Source of the DNA: Proteromonas lacertae
Lineage: Eukaryota
NCBI GenBank assembly: GCA_002245135.1
Contig: NGBS01001160.1
Span: forward strand, 434,001-498,000
Direction: 5' to 3'
Length of the DNA stretch: 64,000 nucleotides
Both the position numbers and the translations under genes were made by a program. The notes beneath the pieces were generated by a model. It was not told the DNA's origin. It worked only from the letters and a program-made list of their open reading frames with translations, and searched no databases. Positions 2,121-60,091 of this stretch are shown here, piece after piece. Position 1 is the stretch's first letter, and each line of letters starts with the position of its first letter.

Positions 2121-2696
2121 TTATTCAGAAGATTCTGAAGATGTAGGAGAGGGAGATGATGATGAAGAGTTAGAAGAGGAGGAAGAGGATGATGATGACG
2201 AGGAGGAGTATGGAGATTTCAAGATAGACCACTTATAATAATTACCTTGATGTAATTTGTCGATAACATCATGTCTAAACCTGAAATCGTGAAGCCAACC
2301 AGGACTAACTCTGAAGTCTTTTACTTTACGTCTTGCAGATATATCTTGGAAGACACTCATCGCTGTATCCTTTATGAGCTTATCTTCAACAGGTCCAGAT
2401 CCTTGATTTCCTATATAAGTGTTCAAAATATTCATGATGATGAGTATTTCCTCTTCATTTGAGAAAATTCTGTTCCACTTACCTCGAACTTCAGTACCAG
2501 CTTGTAGTATCCCACTTTGTTTCCATTGGTGATATTTTTTAGCTAACGTTTGCCGTCTTATACTATACTTTCGAGAAACTGACGACAAATTAGTCTCTTC
2601 TATCTCTTGAAATAGCTGAAGCCACTCGGTGGATGATATCAAATAAGAATCAGTTGATTTTCTGGTCCTTTTTGAATTGGAAAGGCATTTATTCAT
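2121..2696 (-). CDS. CENP-B/Tc5(pogo)-type tandem HTH DNA-binding protein with Ser-rich tail, no DDE domain
   Basis: Intronless ORF. LSSVSRKYSIRRQTL is psq-like HTH; FRVSPGWLHDFRFRH matches the F-x-x-S-x-GWL-x-x-F-x-x-RH CENP-B HTH motif. Confidence 0.75.
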   Translation of the reverse strand: MNKCLSNSKRTRKSTDSYLISSTEWLQLFQEIEETNLSSVSRKYSIRRQTLAKKYHQWKQSGILQAGTEVRGKWNRIFSNEEEILIIMNILNTYIGNQGSGPVEDKLIKDTAMSVFQDISARRKVKDFRVSPGWLHDFRFRHDVIDKLHQGNYYKWSILKSPYSSSSSSSSSSSSNSSSSSPSPTSSESSE

Positions 2697-3195
2697 AAGT
2701 TTTTAATAAATAATTTTGTTGGATTTTGATTGGTTGTATGACGTAACTAAAAAAATAGATGCGTTTCATATCTCATCCAAAATTTCATTCATCTTATTTA
2801 AGTTGATTATTAGTGTCTAGTAGTTGTATAATTTATACTCAACTGCAGATGCGTAGCTGTTCATTTTTATTTAACAGAATAAACGAGAAACAGCATTTTT
2901 AAACATTTTTATTAAAATAATATCCGTTTCGTTCAGAAAAATGTTTCAGTTATTTTTTGCATCAGGATTTTATTATATCAGATTAGCTTATCATTCAGAA
3001 ATATATTAGACCTACTATAATATTAGTTGGTAATAAAGTGGGCTTATGAAATAGAATGATTAGAAATATTGGTACTTCTACAAATATACAGGAATGAATT
3101 ACCTAAGAATCAGTACAATGTTTTATTTGTCAAATTTTAGCCCATGAATATCATACAAAGAAAAGAAATTATACAAAATTATCATTTAAAAAAGA

Positions 3196-9510: not shown

Positions 9511-10700
9511 ATGAAAATTCTTCTTTTTCTGTTTATAGTAGCATTATTAGAGGCAGCAAATTGTCCACATATGTGTAGTGGTCATGGAACATGTGATGAG
9601 AAAGGTTTTTGTAATTGTTTTATTGGCTGGACCATGGGTGATTGTTCTTTGAGTATTGTAAATAAGATAATTTGTAGGATCATGCCCTTATGGATATAGT
9701 TATGTAGATCCTACCGGAAATATGACTCCAGAGAATAGAAAAAAATTAGAGTGTAGCTCACAGGGTAAGTGTGATAGGTCTACAGGAGAATGTTCATGTG
9801 CAGATGGGTTTGAAGGTGCAGCATGTGATAGATTATCATGTCCAAATAATTGTAATAGTCATGGAGTTTGTGTGCCAGTCAGTATGTTAAATAAACATTC
9901 AGACGATATGAATCAAATTGAAATAGAAGAAAAGAATTCTAGACATAGATATAGGAATTGGGATAATTTGTTGAGTTTCAAATGTGTGTGTGATTTAGAG
10001 TATAGAGGATCAGATTGTAGTGAAAGTATATATGATTTATTATTATAATTTAGAAAAATGTCCAAGTGGTTTTTATATATCCTCTGAAAAAGATTTTACA
10101 CAGACAATAACTATATCTACTACATCTTATCAATCAAATATTGATTCTAAATCATGTTTAGCATATTTAGAATATACAGATTATTATGGTAATAAATGGT
10201 ATAGTAATAGTTATTGCGTATTCTGTGAAGATAGTAATTCATCAATATGTAAAAATACGAAAATAAAAGGCTGGAAAGAAGCATTAAGCAAATTTCCTGC
10301 AGATATAATAGACTTAGATAAAAATAAACCAATTGATATAAATGAAAATAGAATAATTATAAAGTTTGGTAAGAATAATCCAAATTATAGACAATCTTGT
10401 TTTAGAATTATCATGGAAGAAGATTTAGCGTTATTATTAGATAAAGAAAGGAAAGATATTCATGGTATGACTATTGAAGGATTGTCTTTAGATGTGAATG
10501 GTGAATATCATGTAGAAGATTATGATAATAGTAGTTTTAAAGCATTAAGAAATGTTAGTTCTATTCAATATACAAATTCTGAAGGTGGAGAAGCGATAGA
10601 ATGTAGTAACCATGGTGTTTGTGACAGAGAAGAAGGATTATGTAAATGCTTTGACGGATATTATGGTATTTCCTGCTCTGAACAAGCAGCTATGATATAA
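9511..10700 (+). CDS. Secreted EGF/tenascin-repeat protein, Sig1/Ocm1 mastigoneme-like family
   Basis: Signal peptide; CSGHGTC, ECSSQGKCDRSTGECSCADGFEGAACDRLSCPNNCNSHGVC, YRNWD, and terminal ECSNHGVCDREEGLCKCFDGYYGISC. Confidence 0.7.
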
Positions 10701-48703: not shown

Positions 48704-48823
48704 AGTATGATTTAGAAAATCAAAGATTTATTAACTATTGAAAATCAACGAATCAGATTGTATTTTTGCATCTAAAAATTAGGAACGACCCAAATACTGG
48801 ACAGCGATTAAAATGAGCAGATC

Positions 48824-50634: not shown

Positions 50635-52461
50635 ATGTTTGATTTGCTGAATATCTTTTCAAATGAATCATTTGCAGGGTATGTAAGAGTTATTATGATA
50701 ATAGAGACAAGACCAGATCTGGAAACAACCTATTTTCTGAAAAAAGTATTTGGCATGTCCAAAAAACTGACAGATTATGGAATTACCATATTGTTATACC
50801 TAGAAAAATATGTATAATAGTAAAGTTTTATTTCGTTTGTAGTTTCAACGGGATTCTGCTCAAATAACATATCATTTACTAAAACATCAAAAAATAGATG
50901 TATTAGAAAATGCAATTAAAGAAGATAAAATACTGGAACTAGTTGAAAAAGAATTAAATGTAGATATTTCAGAATCAGTATTATTCTTTTTCTTATTATG
51001 TTGTAGATTTTACCATATACAGATCCTCTTCAATCCACATTAATAGGAAGGAGAGCATTATCATATCTAGATGCAGCTAGTTTAGCTAGATGTGGTTGTG
51101 TTTGTACAAAATGGAATAAATGGGTTTATGGTAAAAGAAATTATAAAATCGAAAAAGATGATGATGATAGCAATAATAGCAATAACAGAACAATAAATAG
51201 AAATAGAGGTACATCAGTATCATACGTATCCAATGATGTATTCTTACCGAAATCAACAAGTGAATCAGAAATTGGAAATATTACAATACCAAGAGATATT
51301 GTAAGAAATACAACTCAAAAACATGTAAGAATCGATACAGATCCTTATATCTCTGTATTACCACCAGTGAAGAAAGCTTTATTCAAATGGAGAATTCAAT
51401 TATCAGGTATACCAGCGGAATATAGATATAAATATTGGAGATATGTGACAGAATTGGAAATGAAACAAGATTCGGATATAATGCATAGACAACCAGGAAT
51501 ATTTGAATTATTTGTAGATCAATTACCACCGCCATCACTATATAAAACTATAAATGATGATATATCTTTTTTTTAAGACTATTATTATTATTATTTGTTT
51601 TTCTTAATGAATAAAAGTTCATAGAACATTCGTGTATGATAGTAGATATGGTGAATCAATGAATGATCGTATATTTAAAATAATAATTATTTATAATTAG
51701 ATGATTTCGATGAAAAAGGTGAGTTATTAACATTAGAAGAGAAAAATAGAAGATTAATTCGACTATTGCATGCAATATCATTTTTACATGATACTTTATT
51801 ATATTGTCAAGGAATGAATCATATTGGAGCTGAATTACTACGAATCTCAAAATGGAATGAAGTAGATGCATTTTGGCTATTTAGTAGTTTCGTAATGAGT
51901 AAACAGACAAGATTATACGAGTTATATATGCCTGGATTACCACGTCTTCATGTTTGTCAATATATATTAGGAAGGTTAATAAGGCAATTTTTACCAAAAT
52001 TAGCTTTACATTTTGAAACAATAGGATTAAATACTGAAATGTTTTCTACTGAATGGTTTATTACTTTATTCTCTTCTCATTGTTTATTACCTCCTTCTGT
52101 TGTTTCACGATTGTTAGATACATTTTTATATCAAGGATGGAAAGTGATTTATAGAATTGCACTTTCTATTTTATCATTTTTTGAAGAAACTATGTTGGTA
52201 TTTGATCTAGAAAAATGTCTTGTCTATCTTCAAAGATTGCCTAATTCAGGAGTAAAAGATCTTACTCAGGAAGAAGCTAATCAAATTGTCAGTAATTCAC
52301 TTACTTTTAAATTTAGTACTGCATACTTGGATGATTTAGAAAGAGTATATGATAGTGACAATTTAACACCTTCACCATCCGATAGAACAACAGGAACTTC
52401 AGAAAGATCGTCTTTTGAGAAAGTTACATCATTTTTCAAGAAACGACCAACCTCTGCTTAA
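50635..52461 (+). CDS. F-box + TBC (Rab-GAP) domain protein
   Basis: LSYLDAASLARCGCVCTKW (F-box), GIPAEYRYKYW, INDDVHRTF (Arg finger, after splicing), YCQGMNHIG (Gln finger), EWFITLFS. Confidence 0.88.
51562..51616 (+). other. Minor-spliceosome (U12-type) intron, AT-AA termini
   Basis: 5' ATATCTTT, branch-point-like TTCTTAAT 8 nt before the 3' end; removal yields the TBC motif INDD-VHRTF. Confidence 0.8.
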
Positions 52462-52583
52462 ATATAATGTATGTTATACTTTTGTTTATAAAAATAATAC
52501 TTAAATTATATTCTGTTGTTGATAAAATGAAAAAAATACACTCAAACGTGTTTGTGACAAAATATTTAATTTTTGCTCTTTTC

Positions 52584-53320
52584 ATGTTATATAAAGTATT
52601 TAATTTGTTGATTATATATGCAACTATTGTATCATGTCAAAATCTTTGTAATTCAGGTGATTATTTATCTAAAGATCATAAACCAGTGAAATGTCTATTT
52701 ATTCCAAATTGTGCAATAAAAAGTGCAATTTTCACAGATTTGGAATTAGTAGTTGGGAATGATAAATCTATTCATACATCAATTATTTCAATATGCCACA
52801 ACGACAACTACCTATATTTTGAGTTCGAAAATTTCAATGATTCATTAGCCTTATCAAAGAATGCAAATAAAGATAAATTTTTAGATAGTTCTTCTCAGAT
52901 TTTCATTTCATTTGGAAAAGAAGATCCATCAGAGTATTATAATATTTTCATCACTCCATTCAACAATCTTTTTATAAACAAAATTGAAAATTCAAAAGCA
53001 GTTAAACCAATTCTAGACTTAAATCCAAATATATTCCATGGTTCAACTCCCAATCAACATAATCAGAAATGGAGAGCAACAATAGATGTACCTTTATCAT
53101 TTTTGACCAATATAAATGAAATAACACAACCAATTATACTCAGAACGAATATTCTACGAATTGTGAGGTCAAATGTATTTTTTATAATTATATTTTACAT
53201 TAGAATAATGATAAGAAATGTGATAAGAGTAGTTGTCAGTATTATCTGTGGAATGGTCAGTTGAATGACAAATCTATACCAGATAGTAGTGATATGGGTA
53301 TTTTAGTATTATCTTATTAG
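52584..53320 (+). CDS. Secreted CBM9/DOMON-like carbohydrate-binding-fold protein
   Basis: Signal peptide; HNDNYLYFEF, DSSSQIFI, YYNIFITPFN, WRATIDVPLSFL, LRTNILR follow the CBM9-like strand pattern. Confidence 0.55.
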
Positions 53321-53413: not shown

Positions 53414-56400
53414 CTATAGTTTTGGAAATAAAAATTCAGTTACTTTTTTATCTTTATACAACTTGAAATATATCTTTTGTGCTGCATTTGCATATGCTCT
53501 TTTCCTTGAAGTTTCATCATCACTTAGCGTAGAAAAACAATCTTTTCTTCCATCATTATGAATCTTTTTAATTTCTAACCATACAACATATAATTTTCCT
53601 TCTTCACTATCTTTATCTATTTTCTCATGATATTTTACTTCAATTCTATAATAATAATAACAAAAATAACATATACTTATAACCTTTTCTATTAACAAAT
53701 TCATGTAAAAAACTAACGGCATTATGATAACCTAGCAATGCTCCACTTTCTTCAATCAAAATGTATTTAGAATCAAATAAATCAGAATCTTCATCATCTT
53801 CATCTTCACCATCTGAACCTTTTAAATATTCTACTGATATTTGCTCAGCCATACTATAGAAATAAAATAACCAATGAAAATACTGGAATGATGAAATAGA
53901 ACCACCTCCTTCATCATTATTAGGTACAAAATAATAGAATGAACTATTCATTGCACGAGCTCTTCCTTGACTTTGTATAAGAGATTTTGGAGTAGCAATT
54001 TTATCATATCTAATTACATGATTACACTCTGGAATATCTAAACCTTCTTCACCAATTTGTGTTGATATTAGTATATTGCAATTCTATTTTGATATAAATG
54101 GAAATATATTATACCCTTTCAAACTGTCTTATTGCTGTTTCTTGTTGAGCTCTTGTCATAGTTATCAATGAACCTGATTTTCCATGTCCACATAACCAAA
54201 CTGGTTTTAAAGTTGGTATAAATATCTTTAAAGTATTTGATAATACAGTTGTTTCTACTCTAGTTTCAACAAACAGAATGATTTTTGATTGACTATCATA
54301 TTTACCGATTCTATATGGATTACAAAAACTTATGATTATTATACGCAGTGATTAAACGCACCAGCTTCTGTAACTTTTCTGAACATCTATGAAAATCATC
54401 ACTATTATCATCGCAATAACATCTCAGTTCTCCATCAATTGTATCATATAATGTTCTATCAGTAATATTAAAATCTTTGATGGCTTTCAATGTCCAAAAT
54501 GGGCCAATTGAATAAATACAATGTATTATATCATTCAATCTCATATTATTCTTCTCATCTCCATCTATTTTTAAACCTTCTAATGTCTCTATTAATGGAT
54601 CTAATGATAGATTTTTATTATAAGTGATAATCTATTAAATAATAAAATAAACAACTATACTTGCTCTTGTGGTCTATTTGTATGTTCATTCAATTCATTT
54701 TCAGCTTCTTTTGACAACTTTGCTACATCTGAATCCATAACTTTAGTCAAATCAATAACCATCTTTTTAATTTCATCTTCTTTTATTACATTAGCTTTTA
54801 ATGGAGTGGCAGTTAAACCAACTATTCTAGGAAGTGTTTTATGAATCTGTTCTTCAGAATATCCTTTCCTCCTTAATCTATAGAATAAAATAAAATTAAA
54901 AAATACTCTTCATATTTACGATAATAATGAGCTTCTTGAATTACTTTATATCTATGCCCTTTTGTTCCATGATGACATTCATCATATATTAATAATGCAA
55001 CTCTATCAATAGTTAATGCAGCATGAGATAATGCTTGTTCAAATACATCTGGAACACAAATTACAATTTCATTACTATAGCTTTCCCATATATATGAATC
55101 ATAACTTTTTTTACCAGTCAATTGATTTACTTTTACTGCAATATTCTTTGCTCTTAGATATTTCTCAATACTTCTTCCTTGTTGAGTAATTAAGTTAGTT
55201 GTTGGTACTAACATAACAATTAATTTGCCTTTATTCCAACTACAATTAATGAAATGTTCAATAACTAAAGTTGCTACTAGAGTCTTACCTGATCCTGTTG
55301 GAGCAACAACTATTGTGTTTCTCTAATAAATAAATAAATAAATATATATATATATAATACTTCAACACATTGTCTATAAAACTCATATTGATATGATCTG
55401 GGTTTTACTACACTTACACCATCATTATTTGTATCTGAAATTGAATGTAGAATTGACTGTTGAGCAGATTGTTGCATTGTCTGTTGTTGTATTTGGGATT
55501 GAATTGGTGATATAGGTACTGGTTGATATGGTTGCTGGATTGGTTGCTGATATGTTTGATATGGTTGTTGTACTGGAATTGAATCAGATGGTCTGAATCC
55601 TGTAGTTGTAAATTGTGGATGTTGATTCATCATTGAACTATTATTACTGCTATTATATGATTGTTGTTGTTGTATTGGTAAAGGTAAATTATTTGACATT
55701 GGCATTGGCATTGTAGAATTAAACTGCGGAACTGCTGCTGATGGACTGTTATATCTTAGTGGAGATGGTTGATTACTAATCGATTGTGATATATTAATAA
55801 ATCGATTATCAGCAAGACATTGACTTTGCGGTTGGCTTAGTGGTAGTGGTATATCATAAGATGTATTTGAAACACCTAATGAATTAGTTGGTAATGATGA
55901 TGATATTGTTCTTGATGATGATGATGATGATGATGAAGAAGAAGAAGAAGAAGAAGAACTATCACTATTCATTAATACTTTAAATCCCTATTATTCATAA
56001 ATCAATTAATATCTATATACATATCTACTCAAATCAGATGGAGAAATCTCTTTAAAATTAGATGGAGGCAATACTGTTCTTTCACTATCACTAATTAAGC
56101 TACTATCTATTACATAAATATAACAATTATAATAATACTAAATATAACTGGTCCATCATCACTTTTATATTTGTGATGATTAGTATATATGTATAATATT
56201 CTCTTTGCAGCTTCACCTTCTGCTTCTTCGTATGTATTATACTCTTTTTCACATCCTTCTGGTCTATCAGGTGGAGTAATATCATATTTAAATTTCCCAC
56301 TTGTTGTTCTACTTATACTATAGGTGTAATCTCTTCTGTGGTTTGTAGATTCATAGTCCTTTAATTTTTTAAGAAATTTGTACCATTTAAATCTTCCAAA

Positions 56401-57098
56401 TTGACTAAAGGTTTATTTGGTGTTGTATATTGACTATCACCTGTATAATGATAAAGAACCAATCTAGCCAATTCCTAATACAAAATAAAAATAAATTATA
56501 TAATATAATCTATACATCTTTACTTTCTTTTTGTTAGGGTAAAATCCTCCATTTTCTATTTTACTACCATCTTTAAATAACGCATATGATCTAAATATCT
56601 TTCTACCATTATAATCTCTTTCTTCACACTCTTCAGTGTAATTAAAATCAAGTCTTCCACAACTGTTTTGTTTTAAAGTATTTAAATCTGCTCTGTACTT
56701 TCCTGCAATACTTGCGCTTAGGTTCAATTGTGATGATGTAGAGGATCTTGAAGATGCAGAAGAACCTATACAACCAAAATAATATTTTCAGTGATACCAA
56801 TGCTAGAAGGTAGCGAATCAGCAATTTCTTCTTTATAATCACATCGGTAATCTGGATGTTTTAACAAAATATATAGCAAAATGTGAGATGCTTCCTATAA
56901 AATACAATAAATTATGCTTACCTGCTCAGCTGCCTTTTTTGATTTGTTTATCTGTATGGTAGAATATTTCTTACCATTATACACAAAATATCCAGTAAAA
57001 CGTTGATCATGTGGAGGTCCTGTACTACTAGTATATATTTTCACTGGATCTAACCCAAGTCTTTGCCTCTCTGTGTTATAAATGCTTTTATAATCCAT
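53414..57098 (-). CDS. Dicer-like helicase protein: 3x dsRBD + DExD/H helicase + DUF283, lacking PAZ and RNase III
   Basis: dsRBD1 GPPHDQRF...SKKAAEQ; PRSYQ, APTGSGKT, DECHH, GLTAT, GEEGLDIPEC, IQSQGRAR; DUF283-like GALL...AVSFL...KRAYANAA...LFP*. Confidence 0.88.
55903..55960 (-). repeat. (TCT)n(TCA)n poly-Ser coding microsatellite
   Basis: GAT/GAA triplet runs on the + strand, in the linker of the Dicer-like gene. Confidence 0.9.
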
Positions 57099-57311: not shown

Positions 57312-58628
57312 TTATTTAAAAATTGGATCTTGCGGTTCTTTTATACCTAAAATACTTCTTACTTCACCTAACAAATAAATACTTCCACATATAATACAAC
57401 AATCATTTTTATCCATTTTATTTAATACATCAATTATTGTATCTTTAACAGATTTATTATTTTCCTTTATATTATTATTTGGAACTACAGATTTTAGTAT
57501 TTTATATAAATCATGTTGCGAAACAGATCTATAATTATTGGATTTTACAAAATGAATATTTTCATGTTTTATATTCTTTACTGTTGTTTCTAAACATGAT
57601 TTTATATCTTTATCATTTGAAAATCCTAATATAATGTGATTATTTATTTTATTTCCCTTTTTTACATCATCTGACAATGAGTTAAATAATGTTTTAAACG
57701 CTTGTGGATTATGACTACAATCTAACATGACATTTCTTGGTTTATTATCATTCAAAATATTGGTTTTAATTATTTCCATTCTGTTTGATAATTGTTGATT
57801 TATCCCATAATTTATACTATCATCATTTATCTTCGAATAATAATTTGGATTTGATGATTTCAATATATTCAAACATTTTTTTGCTAATTCAATGTTTATT
57901 TCATTATAATTCTTATATTCTTTATTTATGTCAATTTGATAGAATGGACTATTCTGTTTCATTGCGATTTCCTTCAACACATTCACAGGTAAATCTTTTC
58001 CTACAACAACTGGTACATTTGGTTTAATAATTCCACCCTTTTCTTCAGCTATTTCTTCAACAGTATTTCCTAATATTTTAGTATGTTCTAATCCAATTGA
58101 AGTAATACAACTTATATCAGGTGTTATTATATTTGTTGCATCTAATCTTCCTCCTAAACCTACTTCTATTACTCCTACATCTATATTCTGTTCCATAAAG
58201 TATTTGTAAGATAATATTGTTGTATATTCGAAAAAAGATGTGTTAATATTGTGTGTTTTTGATAAATTAAATAACAATTCTAAATTCTCTTTTATATAAT
58301 CTTCTGGAATGTAATTATCATTGATTCTTATTCTCTCTCTATAGCATATAACATGAGGAGAAGTAAATAAACCTGTTTTATATCCACTCTTAATCAGCGC
58401 TTTATAAATCTTCCAACAAACAGAACCTTTGCCATTTGTTCCTGTAACATGTACAGTATGAAATTTATTTGCAGGATCACCAACTAATTTCGCTAACTGC
58501 CTAACATTATCTATATTTAACTTAACTACACTAAATCTGTGATAATTGTAGAGTTCATTCAATATTTCTATTAACATAAATATATAGATCTAATACCAGC
58601 ATAAGATCTTACTTTATTAATTCCTCAT
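57312..58628 (-). CDS. Folylpolyglutamate synthase / dihydrofolate synthase (FolC family)
   Basis: HVTGTNGKGSV, GLFTSPH, RERIRIN, FFEYTT, EVGLGGRLDATN, IAEEKGGIIK, LDCSHNP, CGSIYL. The start is uncertain because of an apparent 1-nt insertion. Confidence 0.93.
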
Positions 58629-58790: not shown

Positions 58791-59921
58791 TTACAAATCA
58801 AATAATTCATTAATCATTCTGTTAGTAACACTATCTTCATCATTTTGAACTGCTCTATTATCATTCAATACTACTTCTTTCTTATTATCACAAGCTGGAC
58901 CTGAAAACCCTTGAAAACATTCACACAATCCAGTTTTACGATTACATAATCCATTATTACCACATTCATACTGTTCTGGAGTTTCTGAAGCAGGGGCAGA
59001 GAGTCTTATACATTCTCCAGTTATTTTAGATTTTAAAAACTTATCAATATCTATATTATAACATTGTATTATAGTTTGTATTTCAACTGGTGAGTAATAG
59101 GCAATACAGCTACTTAATGGAGGTATTAATTGAATAATATCAGTTAGCCTATTGTTATAATCAATTTTTCTTTGTGGATGACTTGATACAATTCATATTG
59201 ATTCGGTGCATAGAGTTCTTCTGATATATAGGTAATACCATCGTATGTATAATTCAATCTAAACTTACCACATACATCATAATGTGATATAATATAAATT
59301 CATTTTCGGTGGTTCAGATGCAGCTGCATCAATTCCATATTGACATTCTCTTTCTGAACAATCTAAGCCTCTGTATCCTTTATCACATTTGCAACTGTAC
59401 ATTTTAGTTATTTCCCATCCTGTATATGGATTTGATGATGTAGCTAAATTATACTCGATATTTTCACATATTCCATGACCACTGCATATTAATTTCTCAT
59501 TATTAGATGGACAGGTTGTTCTTTGACATGCTGCTCCTTCATAGCCATTATAACATTTACATTCTCCTTTATTATTATCACAATTACCACTTCCACTACA
59601 TTCTGCATACGCATGTGCTTTAGTATCTTCTTCATTTATTCCATAATTAGGATACCATTCAGTTTTCACTTCAACATCTGTTATTTTTCCATCATGATTC
59701 AAATCTCCATTCGAAGTGCCAAACCATGCAGCACTATATGGACAACCTCCTATTATTAATTTATGTTACTTTAACGATATTATACTTAATGAACAATCGG
59801 CTCCTCCAAATCCTGGATAACACTCACATTTATCTCGTTTTCCACATTCACCATGACCGTTGCACATGTTATTACAACAAATAATCATCCCAAATAGTAA
59901 CATAATTCCTAACACTCTCAT
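58791..59921 (-). CDS. Sig1/Ocm1-like mastigoneme protein (EGF-like repeats); apparent frameshifts at 59160-59285
   Basis: Signal peptide, CNGHGEC, CPYSAAW...GDLNHDG...AHAYAECSGSGNCD, GYEGAACQRTTCP, YTGWE, terminal ECGNNGLCNRKTGLCECFQGFSGPAC. Confidence 0.8.
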
Positions 59922-60091
59922 TTTTAATCTTTTTTCAATCTCATAAAAATTGGTTATTGAAAATATTTTGGATAACCGCATTATCAAAAAACTCAAAAAA
60001 CCAAGCAACCAAAAGTATATATCATCACATTATTATAATATATTCTTTTTTTAACTTTAATTACATTTAACTAATATACAATTCACACGAT

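What the first reader, a model, noticed from the sequence alone, without database searches (positions are those of the whole stretch)
53414..57098. Half-Dicer: triple dsRBD fused to a Dicer helicase + DUF283, ending with no PAZ or RNase III
Seen in sequence: hand splicing gives three dsRBD-like units. dsRBD1 (~57098-56870) is canonical (MDYKS...GPPHDQRF...SKKAAEQEAS); two degenerate copies end ELARLVLY and EAEGEAAKRILY. A Ser/Gln/Pro linker follows, then a helicase with intact motifs (APTGSGKT, DECHH, TAT, GEEGLDIPEC, QSQGRAR) and a DUF283-like domain. The TAG stop at 53414-53416 comes just after its LFP end, and a convergent gene ends 94 bp away, so no PAZ or RNase III exons follow locally. 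The dsRBD3-to-helicase junction is in frame through ordinary introns. Established: canonical Dicers run helicase-DUF283-PAZ-RNaseIIIa/b-dsRBD, and separate tandem-dsRBD cofactors (plant DRB/HYL1, animal TRBP/Loqs/R2D2) bind the helicase or DUF283 region. Inference: this is a cofactor-helicase fusion acting as one half of a split Dicer with a nuclease encoded elsewhere, or a stand-alone RIG-I/DRH-like dsRNA sensor.
Basis: partly seen in the sequence, partly recalled or inferred. Interest (0 to 1): 0.87.

Follow-up and report, generated by a model that had tools for sequence, protein, structure and literature searches.

The report
Nuclease-free Dicer helicase with built-in cofactor
A compact, AT-rich protist gene is predicted to join two or three double-stranded-RNA-binding domains to the motor half of Dicer but has no cutting domain, so it likely grips and feeds double-stranded RNA to a nuclease encoded elsewhere; similar nuclease-free helicases are known in other protists, and this copy carries a one-base frame break.

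Summary
The architecture is largely real. Twelve GTA..TAG introns of 27-49 nt give about 1,096 aa: dsRBD1 (Pfam above cut-off), a doubtful unit 2, unit 3 (an orthologue folds as a dsRBD and lacks the basic RNA-binding motif), a Ser/Gln/Pro linker, a Dicer-type helicase with intact motifs and a divergent DUF283. TAG at 53416-53414 ends it; a convergent gene stops at 53320; no RNase III, PAZ or RdRP lies in the window.

Orthologue P0163 reads through it, so it is an assembly error or a strain lesion.

The helicase falls on the Dicer side of the tree, as its deepest branch; AU tests reject no placement. Nuclease-free Dicer-type helicases with dsRBDs are already described (Dictyostelium HelF, Thalassiosira Tp3_20605) and turned up in other protists here. 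New is the TRBP/Loqs-like triple head together with a DUF283 end. No genome, reads or complex prediction were available, so the split-Dicer partner is untested. New variant of a known kind; interest 0.5.

The parts
56847..57098 (-). dsRBD1 (exon 1 57098-56922, 27-nt intron, start of exon 2); keeps a GPPH loop and a KKAA motif
   Evidence: Pfam dsrm 30 bits, cut-off 23; sequence
56427..56703 (-). Unit 2, putative degenerate dsRBD, split by intron 56523-56475 (an alternative donor at 56515 would need a second missing base)
   Evidence: No Pfam hit; weak likeness to unit 1, 66 of 2000 shuffles as good; inferred from position and end motif
56361..56370 (-). One-base frame break: A6 run 56370-56365, then in-frame TAA 56363-56361
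   Evidence: Orthologue P0163 is continuous across it; tblastn frames -3 then -2; upstream piece matches P0163, 0 of 5000 shuffles as good
56165..56385 (-). Unit 3: dsRBD fold with acidic EEAEGEAAK where RNA-binding dsRBDs are basic; likely type B (protein-binding)
   Evidence: Model of P0163; VIA-align Z 6.6, rmsd 2.5 over 64 residues to HYL1 dsRBD; Foldseek top rows are dsRBDs, none at E<=0.001; helix invariant in 3 of 3 sequences
55406..56106 (-). Linker: 86-nt exon 56106-56021 and Ser/Gln/Pro low-complexity stretch from 55987
   Evidence: Open frame; GC by codon position 0.29/0.50/0.14 and 0.41/0.46/0.11, coding-like
53955..55405 (-). Dicer-type SF2 helicase (HEL1, insertion, HEL2), motifs I, II, III, V, VI intact
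   Evidence: Pfam; PDB best hit AncD1D2 E 5e-17; relatives P0003 93% and P0005 53%; trees
53417..53765 (-). Divergent DUF283-like domain, the last domain of the protein
   Evidence: Extended DUF283 HMM 24.3 bits against shuffle maximum 7.6 of 2000; HHalign 95%; PDB alignment; below Pfam cut-off
53414..53416 (-). TAG stop; an alternative 30-nt intron 53443-53414 would only replace the last residues and stop five codons later
52419..53320 (+). Convergent neighbour of unknown family, stop at 53318-53320; leaves 93 nt
57312..58589 (-). Upstream neighbour, folylpolyglutamate-synthase-like (name from recalled motifs); stop 213 nt before the ATG
   Evidence: Pfam Mur_ligase_M and Mur_ligase_C

Best explanation
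This is likely one gene for a nuclease-free, Dicer-type helicase with its own cofactor-like dsRBD head, predicted to act in RNA silencing together with a helicase-less RNase III encoded elsewhere. Shown: dsRBD1, the dsRBD fold of unit 3 (in an orthologue), intact ATPase motifs, a DUF283-like end and no nuclease in the window. Inferred from Dicer and TRBP/Loqs structures: dsRBD1 (and perhaps unit 2) captures double-stranded RNA; the helicase and DUF283 close a ring round the duplex and move along it with ATP; unit 3, which lacks the basic motif, binds protein, either the protein's own helicase insertion (the long linker would allow it), a second copy, or the partner nuclease or RdRP. The frame break is read as an assembly error or strain lesion, not part of the mechanism.
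For: Careful tree (26 rows, LG+C20): the window helicase lies on the Dicer side of a starred branch (96/93) that leaves out RLRs, Hef and the heterolobosean pair. Profiles of six Dicers score it 263-276 bits, of six RLRs 238-243. DUF283 sits where it does in Dicer. PMC10328071 (passages): helicase and DUF283 form an ATP-dependent threading ring in Dicer-2 and DCL1, and three-dsRBD cofactors bind HEL2i through a degenerate type B third dsRBD. Helicase-less Dicers coexist with nuclease-free Dicer-type helicases in Dictyostelium (PMC4894637, passages) and Thalassiosira (PMC2724275, passages). Relatives at 93% and 53% (helicase exon) and 74% (unit 3) show the parts are conserved. P0003 breaks at the same two intron positions. 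P0163 and P0164 lose similarity right after GPVIFS into unlike I/F/Y-rich tails, as expected if unit 3 splices onward.
Against: No partner RNase III, Argonaute or RdRP was seen; only the window could be searched. The helicase branches outside the group of complete Dicers (94/93) on a long branch, and an earlier quick tree put it with RLRs (SH-aLRT 95). AU tests reject neither window+RLR (p 0.21), window+Dicers (0.13) nor window+Hef (0.21). The best pairwise score is to the nuclease-free Willaertia protein P0077 (162 bits). HelF, the closest layout in print, is not needed for miRNA processing and its loss strengthens RNAi (PMC4894637, PMC2175303, passages). As assembled, the gene stops after 209 codons. 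No relative shows head and helicase on one chain; the relatives are single-exon fragments, and none was found for the last exon.
Confidence: 0.45

Rival explanations
1. HelF-like modulator: the protein binds and remodels or sequesters dsRNA or siRNA duplexes and dampens or tunes silencing, without forming a dicing complex.
For: Same order as HelF (837 aa; dsRBD 2-76, DEXDc 228-431, HELICc 608-687; PMC4894637 passages). helF deletion makes cells hypersensitive to RNAi (PMC2175303 passages). The helicase branches outside complete Dicers, near nuclease-free protist proteins.
Against: Orthology to HelF was not tested (its sequence was not among the hits identified). The retained DUF283-like domain and an invariant non-basic third dsRBD suggest a protein partner.
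Confidence: 0.25
2. Two genes, or a broken allele: a dsRBD-only cofactor gene (stop at 56363 or at 56112) beside a separate helicase-DUF283 gene starting near 55970.
For: In-frame stop at 56363-56361 in this assembly; unspliced, unit 3 ends at a TAA near 56110 and an ATG lies near 55970. PMC12129017 (passages) warns that fusing neighbours and inventing introns are common annotation errors in compact Blastocystis genomes. No RNA evidence was obtained.
Against: P0163 reads through the first stop. Both linker introns have the same GTA..TAG, AT-rich form as the other ten; the 86-nt exon has coding-like GC3; orthologue tails after GPVIFS differ in length and sequence.
Confidence: 0.17
3. Stand-alone RIG-I/DRH-like sensor of viral dsRNA that signals through its N-terminal part.
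For: One quick tree joined it to RLRs; AU does not reject that (p 0.21); the only two hits of the word-index search were RLR-type proteins.
Against: No RIG-I CTD by local HMM or Pfam; the C-terminus aligns to Dicer DUF283; the N-terminus is dsRBD, not a signalling domain; the careful tree separates it from RLRs.
Confidence: 0.08
4. Full Dicer or helicase-RdRP whose 3' half is missing through misassembly or a very long intron.
For: Helicase-RdRP fusions exist (PMC4791657 passages; P0157). P0149, a triple-dsRBD helicase on a 4.2-kb contig, is sister to such a fusion (99/98) and may itself be cut short.
Against: The stop follows the L..P end of DUF283 directly; a convergent gene ends 93 nt away and several plus-strand genes follow; the next minus-strand gene recognised is at 48727; all 12 introns are under 50 nt. 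The window helicase does not group with P0149/P0157.
Confidence: 0.05

Closest known systems
Dictyostelium discoideum HelF (PMC4894637, PMC2175303; passages seen; the original 2006 paper is not held)
   Same: N-terminal dsRBD, DExD/H and HELICc, no RNase III; host Dicers lack helicase, DUF283 and PAZ.
   Different: HelF has one annotated dsRBD and no annotated DUF283; here two or three dsRBDs, a roughly 230-aa low-complexity linker and a DUF283-like end. Orthology not tested.
Thalassiosira pseudonana Tp3_20605 (PMC2724275, PMC3145265; passages seen)
   Same: Dicer-like DEAD/HELICc followed by a C-terminal dsRBD, no RNase III, in a genome whose Dicer candidate has only two RNase III domains.
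   Different: No N-terminal dsRBD array described; function untested there too.
Dicer base module (helicase-DUF283) with TRBP, Loqs-PB, R2D2 or RDE-4 (PMC10328071 passages; PDB 9mw6 AncD1D2, 4wyq)
   Same: Helicase then DUF283 in the same spacing; a multi-dsRBD element whose third unit lacks the basic motif.
   Different: Here cofactor-like head and helicase are predicted to be one chain, and platform, PAZ, RNase IIIa/b and the C-terminal dsRBD are absent.
Heterolobosean nuclease-free helicases (P0077, Willaertia magna KAL9655220.1; P0060)
   Same: Dicer/RLR-type helicase with dsRBD-type domains and no RNase III; best pairwise score to the window helicase.
   Different: Their dsRBD-type domains are C-terminal and score 13-14 bits on the extended DUF283 HMM; not sister to the window protein in any tree.
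P0149 (unnamed record)
   Same: Three N-terminal dsRBDs, then a Dicer-type helicase.
   Different: Groups with an RdRP-fused helicase, not with the window protein; no DUF283 after the helicase; may be truncated. Suggests the triple head arose more than once.
RIG-I-like receptors and C. elegans DRH-1/DRH-3 (PMC3590228 passages)
   Same: Nuclease-free duplex-RNA-activated ATPase family; DRH-3 works in trans with Dicer and RdRP.
   Different: They end in a RIG-I CTD, absent here.

Membership tests
Dicer (class 3 RNase III) | Two RNase III domains in the protein | tested here: not met
   Local RNase III HMM: no hit in the spliced model, best E 0.2 in six frames of the window
Dicer (class 3 RNase III) | PAZ/platform after DUF283 | tested here: not met
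   Stop directly after DUF283; PAZ HMM best E 0.1 elsewhere in the window
Dicer (class 3 RNase III) | DExD/H helicase followed by DUF283 | tested here: met
   DUF283 is below Pfam's cut-off and rests on a custom HMM and HHalign
Dicer (class 3 RNase III) | Helicase nested among Dicer helicases | tested here: inconclusive
   Dicer side at 96/93 but outside the group at 94/93; AU p 0.13
Duplex RNA-activated ATPases | HEL1, insertion, HEL2 with intact SF2 motifs | tested here: met
Duplex RNA-activated ATPases | dsRNA-stimulated ATP hydrolysis | not testable with these tools
   Needs biochemistry
RIG-I-like receptors / DRH | C-terminal RIG-I CTD | tested here: not met
   Local CTD HMM gives no hit; RLR alignments end at query residues 48-60
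HelF-like nuclease-free helicases | N-terminal dsRBD plus Dicer-type helicase, no RNase III | tested here: met
   depends on the one-gene model
HelF-like nuclease-free helicases | Orthology to HelF | not tested
TRBP/Loqs/RDE-4/DRB cofactors | Three dsRBDs | tested here: inconclusive
   Unit 1 met, unit 3 met by fold of an orthologue, unit 2 unsupported
TRBP/Loqs/RDE-4/DRB cofactors | Type B third dsRBD binds the helicase insertion | not tested
Helicase-RdRP fusions | RdRP domain after the helicase | tested here: not met
   RdRP HMM best E 0.3 in the window
FANCM/Hef | Helicase grouping with Hef/FANCM | tested here: inconclusive
   One Hef-type row only; never sister in trees, AU p 0.21; pairwise 103 bits, 43rd of 47 other rows; dsRBD and DUF283 context argues against

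The most novel reading that the evidence does not exclude
A naturally split Dicer: the helicase-DUF283 base has absorbed its TRBP/Loqs-type three-dsRBD cofactor in one chain, lost the cutting half, and docks in trans on a helicase-less RNase III to thread dsRNA, in a gut-protist lineage for which my searches found no account of RNAi.
Probability: 0.3. Interest if true: 0.75.

Novelty: new variant of a known kind. Interest (0 to 1): 0.5.

Why it matters
Many protists have Dicers without a helicase, and some also carry free Dicer-type helicases; whether the two act together is open. This protein keeps both contact elements of a Dicer base, DUF283 and a type-B-like third dsRBD, so it is a good test case: express it with the organism's RNase III and ask whether dicing becomes ATP-dependent. 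It would also show how the cofactor-helicase contact of TRBP or Loqs can become one chain. If the host is Blastocystis-related, it points to RNA silencing in a lineage where my searches listed no paper on its RNAi machinery.

Tried and rejected
No genome is held, so no search for partner RNase III, Argonaute or RdRP. No sequencing run was listed; this is no evidence on expression or on the frame break. Both metagenome contig scans found no locus, so no relative's DNA was read. The word-index search with the helicase exon gave only two RLR-type proteins. The two-ORF profile found unit 3 relatives but none for the last exon among 7 candidates, so conservation of the stop is untested. The Atlas gave no usable hit for the last exon and no useful taxon for the Asn-tRNA synthetase ORF. 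The last exon folded alone gave pLDDT 52 (beta-beta-alpha) and no Foldseek match; it lacks helix 1 and is uninformative; the VIA search on it did not run. Complex prediction of unit 3 with the helicase insertion was not available. A local dsRBD HMM of 7 seeds was too weak: 4 bits even on unit 1. A/T run lengths show no clear loss of long runs, so I cannot estimate the assembly's indel rate. The 47-nt intron 56405-56359 is rejected as the fix for the break: GTC donor, AAG acceptor, A-rich, and it removes sequence conserved in P0163. Programmed -1 frameshifting at A AAA AAT before the stop is formally possible but not conserved in P0163. Trees used subsets: 71 rows (no Hef row; pattern filter dropped some hits), 48, 32, 26 (fragments, near-duplicates and long branches, including P0059, were left out); only one search is a finished careful search. 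Literature searches for the same layout or a split Dicer; none listed a triple-dsRBD-helicase-DUF283 protein, but the library lacks most subscription journals and I read no supplements, where protist domain tables could list it.
Full report
Setting. The window is eukaryotic, 23-35% GC in 2-kb bins, gene-dense, with short introns. This recalls Blastocystis-related gut stramenopiles, but the lineage is not established: PMC12129017 (passages) gives 39-55% GC with introns of exactly 30 nt for human subtypes and 21-23% GC with longer introns for tortoise isolates, and the window fits neither exactly. No genome and no runs were available.

Gene model. From ATG 57098 on the minus strand, introns 56921-56895, 56797-56766, 56523-56475, 56138-56107, 56020-55988, 55360-55323, 54906-54878, 54660-54632, 54344-54311, 54114-54084, 53883-53854 and 53676-53646 all begin GTA and end TAG and are 27-49 nt long. 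The part from unit 3 to TAG 53416-53414 is one open frame of 893 codons; the head reads 209 codons and stops at TAA 56363-56361. Relative P0003 (93% over the helicase exon) carries intron-like inserts at the same two positions, which supports the splice model there.

The frame break. Relative P0163 is one reading frame that matches the window's ELARLVLY exon (0 of 5000 shuffles as good) and then unit 3 (74%); tblastn puts the two parts in different window frames. One more A in the A6 run at 56370-56365 gives the same length as P0163. The break is therefore peculiar to this assembly or strain. Bridged, the protein is about 1,096 aa.

The head. Unit 1 is a Pfam dsRBD (30 bits, cut-off 23). Unit 3 has no Pfam hit, but a model of P0163 built on three sequences (mean pLDDT 60, higher in the core) has dsRBD topology. 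Foldseek's listed top rows are nearly all dsRBDs, though none reaches E 0.001; VIA-align's best is HYL1 dsRBD (Z 6.6, rmsd 2.5, 64 residues) and the first 25 rows are all dsRNA-binding proteins. Z under 8 alone is weak; the uniformity of the list is the evidence. Where RNA-binding dsRBDs have a basic motif (recalled consensus KKxAK), unit 3 has EEAEGEAAK, invariant with the following helix in 3 of 3 sequences. That fits a type B, protein-binding dsRBD, like the third domain of TRBP or Loqs that binds Dicer's HEL2i (PMC10328071 passages). Unit 2 is unsupported by any test beyond position and a similar end motif.

Is the head fused to the helicase? After GPVIFS the window, P0163 and P0164 run into short, unlike, I/F/Y-rich tails, as translated AT-rich introns do, and the CNR end of P0164 matches the window's acceptor read in another frame. 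The 86-nt exon that follows has coding-like codon-position GC. I put the one-gene model at about 80%; only cDNA can settle it.

Helicase and C-terminus. Motifs I, II, III, V and VI are intact. The best PDB match of both helicase pieces is the reconstructed ancestral Dicer construct AncD1D2 (E 5e-17 and 6e-13). In one search the matches to AncD1D2 and Dicer-2 extend through the acidic linker into the first DUF283 helix; RLR matches do not. The last 125 residues score 24.3 bits over nearly the whole of an extended DUF283 HMM from 41 Dicers (best of 2000 shuffles 7.6; HHalign 95%). Against this, Pfam's own model stays below cut-off, a Pfam-bounded local HMM gives 3.2 bits and generic dsRBDs reach 13-15 bits. 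I call it a divergent DUF283. No RNase III, PAZ, RdRP or RIG-I CTD is found in the model or in six frames of the window. A convergent gene stops at 53318-53320.

Phylogeny. Four trees place the helicase between RLRs and Dicers on a long branch. The first quick tree, without a Hef row, joined it to RLRs and heterolobosean proteins (SH-aLRT 95). Trees rooted on one Hef-type protein put it at the base of the Dicer side; the finished careful tree supports that at 96/93 but keeps it outside the group holding complete Dicers, RdRP-fused helicases and a protist clade (94/93). AU tests reject none of three placements (p 0.13-0.21). Group profiles favour Dicer over RLR by about 25 bits. So loss of the nuclease half from a full Dicer is plausible but not shown; an old nuclease-free branch is as possible.

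What is known. Dictyostelium HelF has an N-terminal dsRBD, DExD and HELICc and no RNase III, in a species whose Dicers lack helicase, DUF283 and PAZ; its loss leaves miRNAs normal and makes cells hypersensitive to RNAi (PMC4894637, PMC2175303; passages; the original paper is not held). Thalassiosira Tp3_20605 has a Dicer-like helicase with a C-terminal dsRBD beside an RNase III-only Dicer candidate (PMC2724275, PMC3145265; passages). Helicase-RdRP fusions occur in oomycetes, Dictyostelium and cnidarians (PMC4791657 passages). Of the 150 best hits I scanned 30 with Pfam and 8 more, and labelled all stored proteins of 550 aa or more with local HMMs. Six hits have dsRBD-type domains and no RNase III: P0014, P0060, P0061, P0077 (Willaertia), P0115 (a dinoflagellate) and P0149; whether they are complete was not checked. 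P0149 has three N-terminal dsRBDs before its helicase but groups with an RdRP-fused helicase. I also read passages of PMC3590228 (DRA family) and PMC13547706 (triple-dsRBD proteins that did not bind the Drosha-like enzyme of Plasmodiophora), the latter a caution against assuming a partner.

Mechanism. Most likely (0.45) the protein is a dsRNA clamp and ATP-driven translocase for a nuclease or RdRP encoded elsewhere, with dsRBD1 catching substrate and unit 3 making a protein contact. Domain content is shown; RNA binding, ATPase activity, the docking site and the partner are inferred. Rivals are a HelF-like modulator (0.25), two genes or a broken allele (0.17), an RLR-like sensor (0.08) and a truncated larger gene (0.05).

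Verdict. Not a Dicer and not an RLR by their defining domains; it works like a Dicer base with a built-in cofactor. The class is known; the triple head with a DUF283 end was not found in my searches. New variant of a known kind, interest 0.5.

Noticed in passing
window 2121-2702 (-): ORF with a Tc5/pogo transposase DNA-binding domain (Pfam HTH_Tnp_Tc5, 29 bits); a transposon or CENP-B-like gene, a possible RNA-silencing target in this genome.
   Followed up: partly
window 56548-56475 (-): If the A5 run near 56533 also lacks one A, the donor at 56515 (41-nt intron) would give unit 2 three more residues before ELARL, with the intron at the same place and phase as in unit 1. Alignment did not favour it (128 against 66 of 2000 shuffles).
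   Followed up: partly
window 56370-56361 (-): The break site reads A AAA AAT directly before the in-frame TAA, formally a -1 slippery heptamer; not conserved in P0163.
   Followed up: partly
P0149, P0157, P0161: A triple-dsRBD helicase (P0149) is sister to helicase-RdRP fusions; P0157 also has a weak RIG-I-CTD/Yippee-like N-terminal domain before its helicase and RdRP. A dsRBD x3-helicase-RdRP protein may exist.
   Followed up: partly
P0014, P0056, P0058, P0061, P0115, P0045: A well-supported clade (99-100) of nuclease-free Dicer-type helicases that includes Chromera, Rhabdomonas and Biecheleria proteins, with varied C-termini (dsRBDs, RanBP zinc fingers).
   Followed up: partly
window 52419-53320 (+): Convergent neighbour of about 300 aa with a hydrophobic end and no convincing Pfam family.
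   Followed up: no
window 58791-60029 (-) and 9999-10700 (+): Cysteine-rich teneurin/tenascin-like EGF-repeat proteins (Pfam EGF_2 and EGF_Teneurin for 59280-59765; the 9999-10700 ORF judged by eye), likely surface proteins.
   Followed up: no
window 53883-53854 (-): This 30-nt intron is in frame and stop-free; retained, it would restore the pincer-helix length seen in the AncD1D2 alignment.
   Followed up: no
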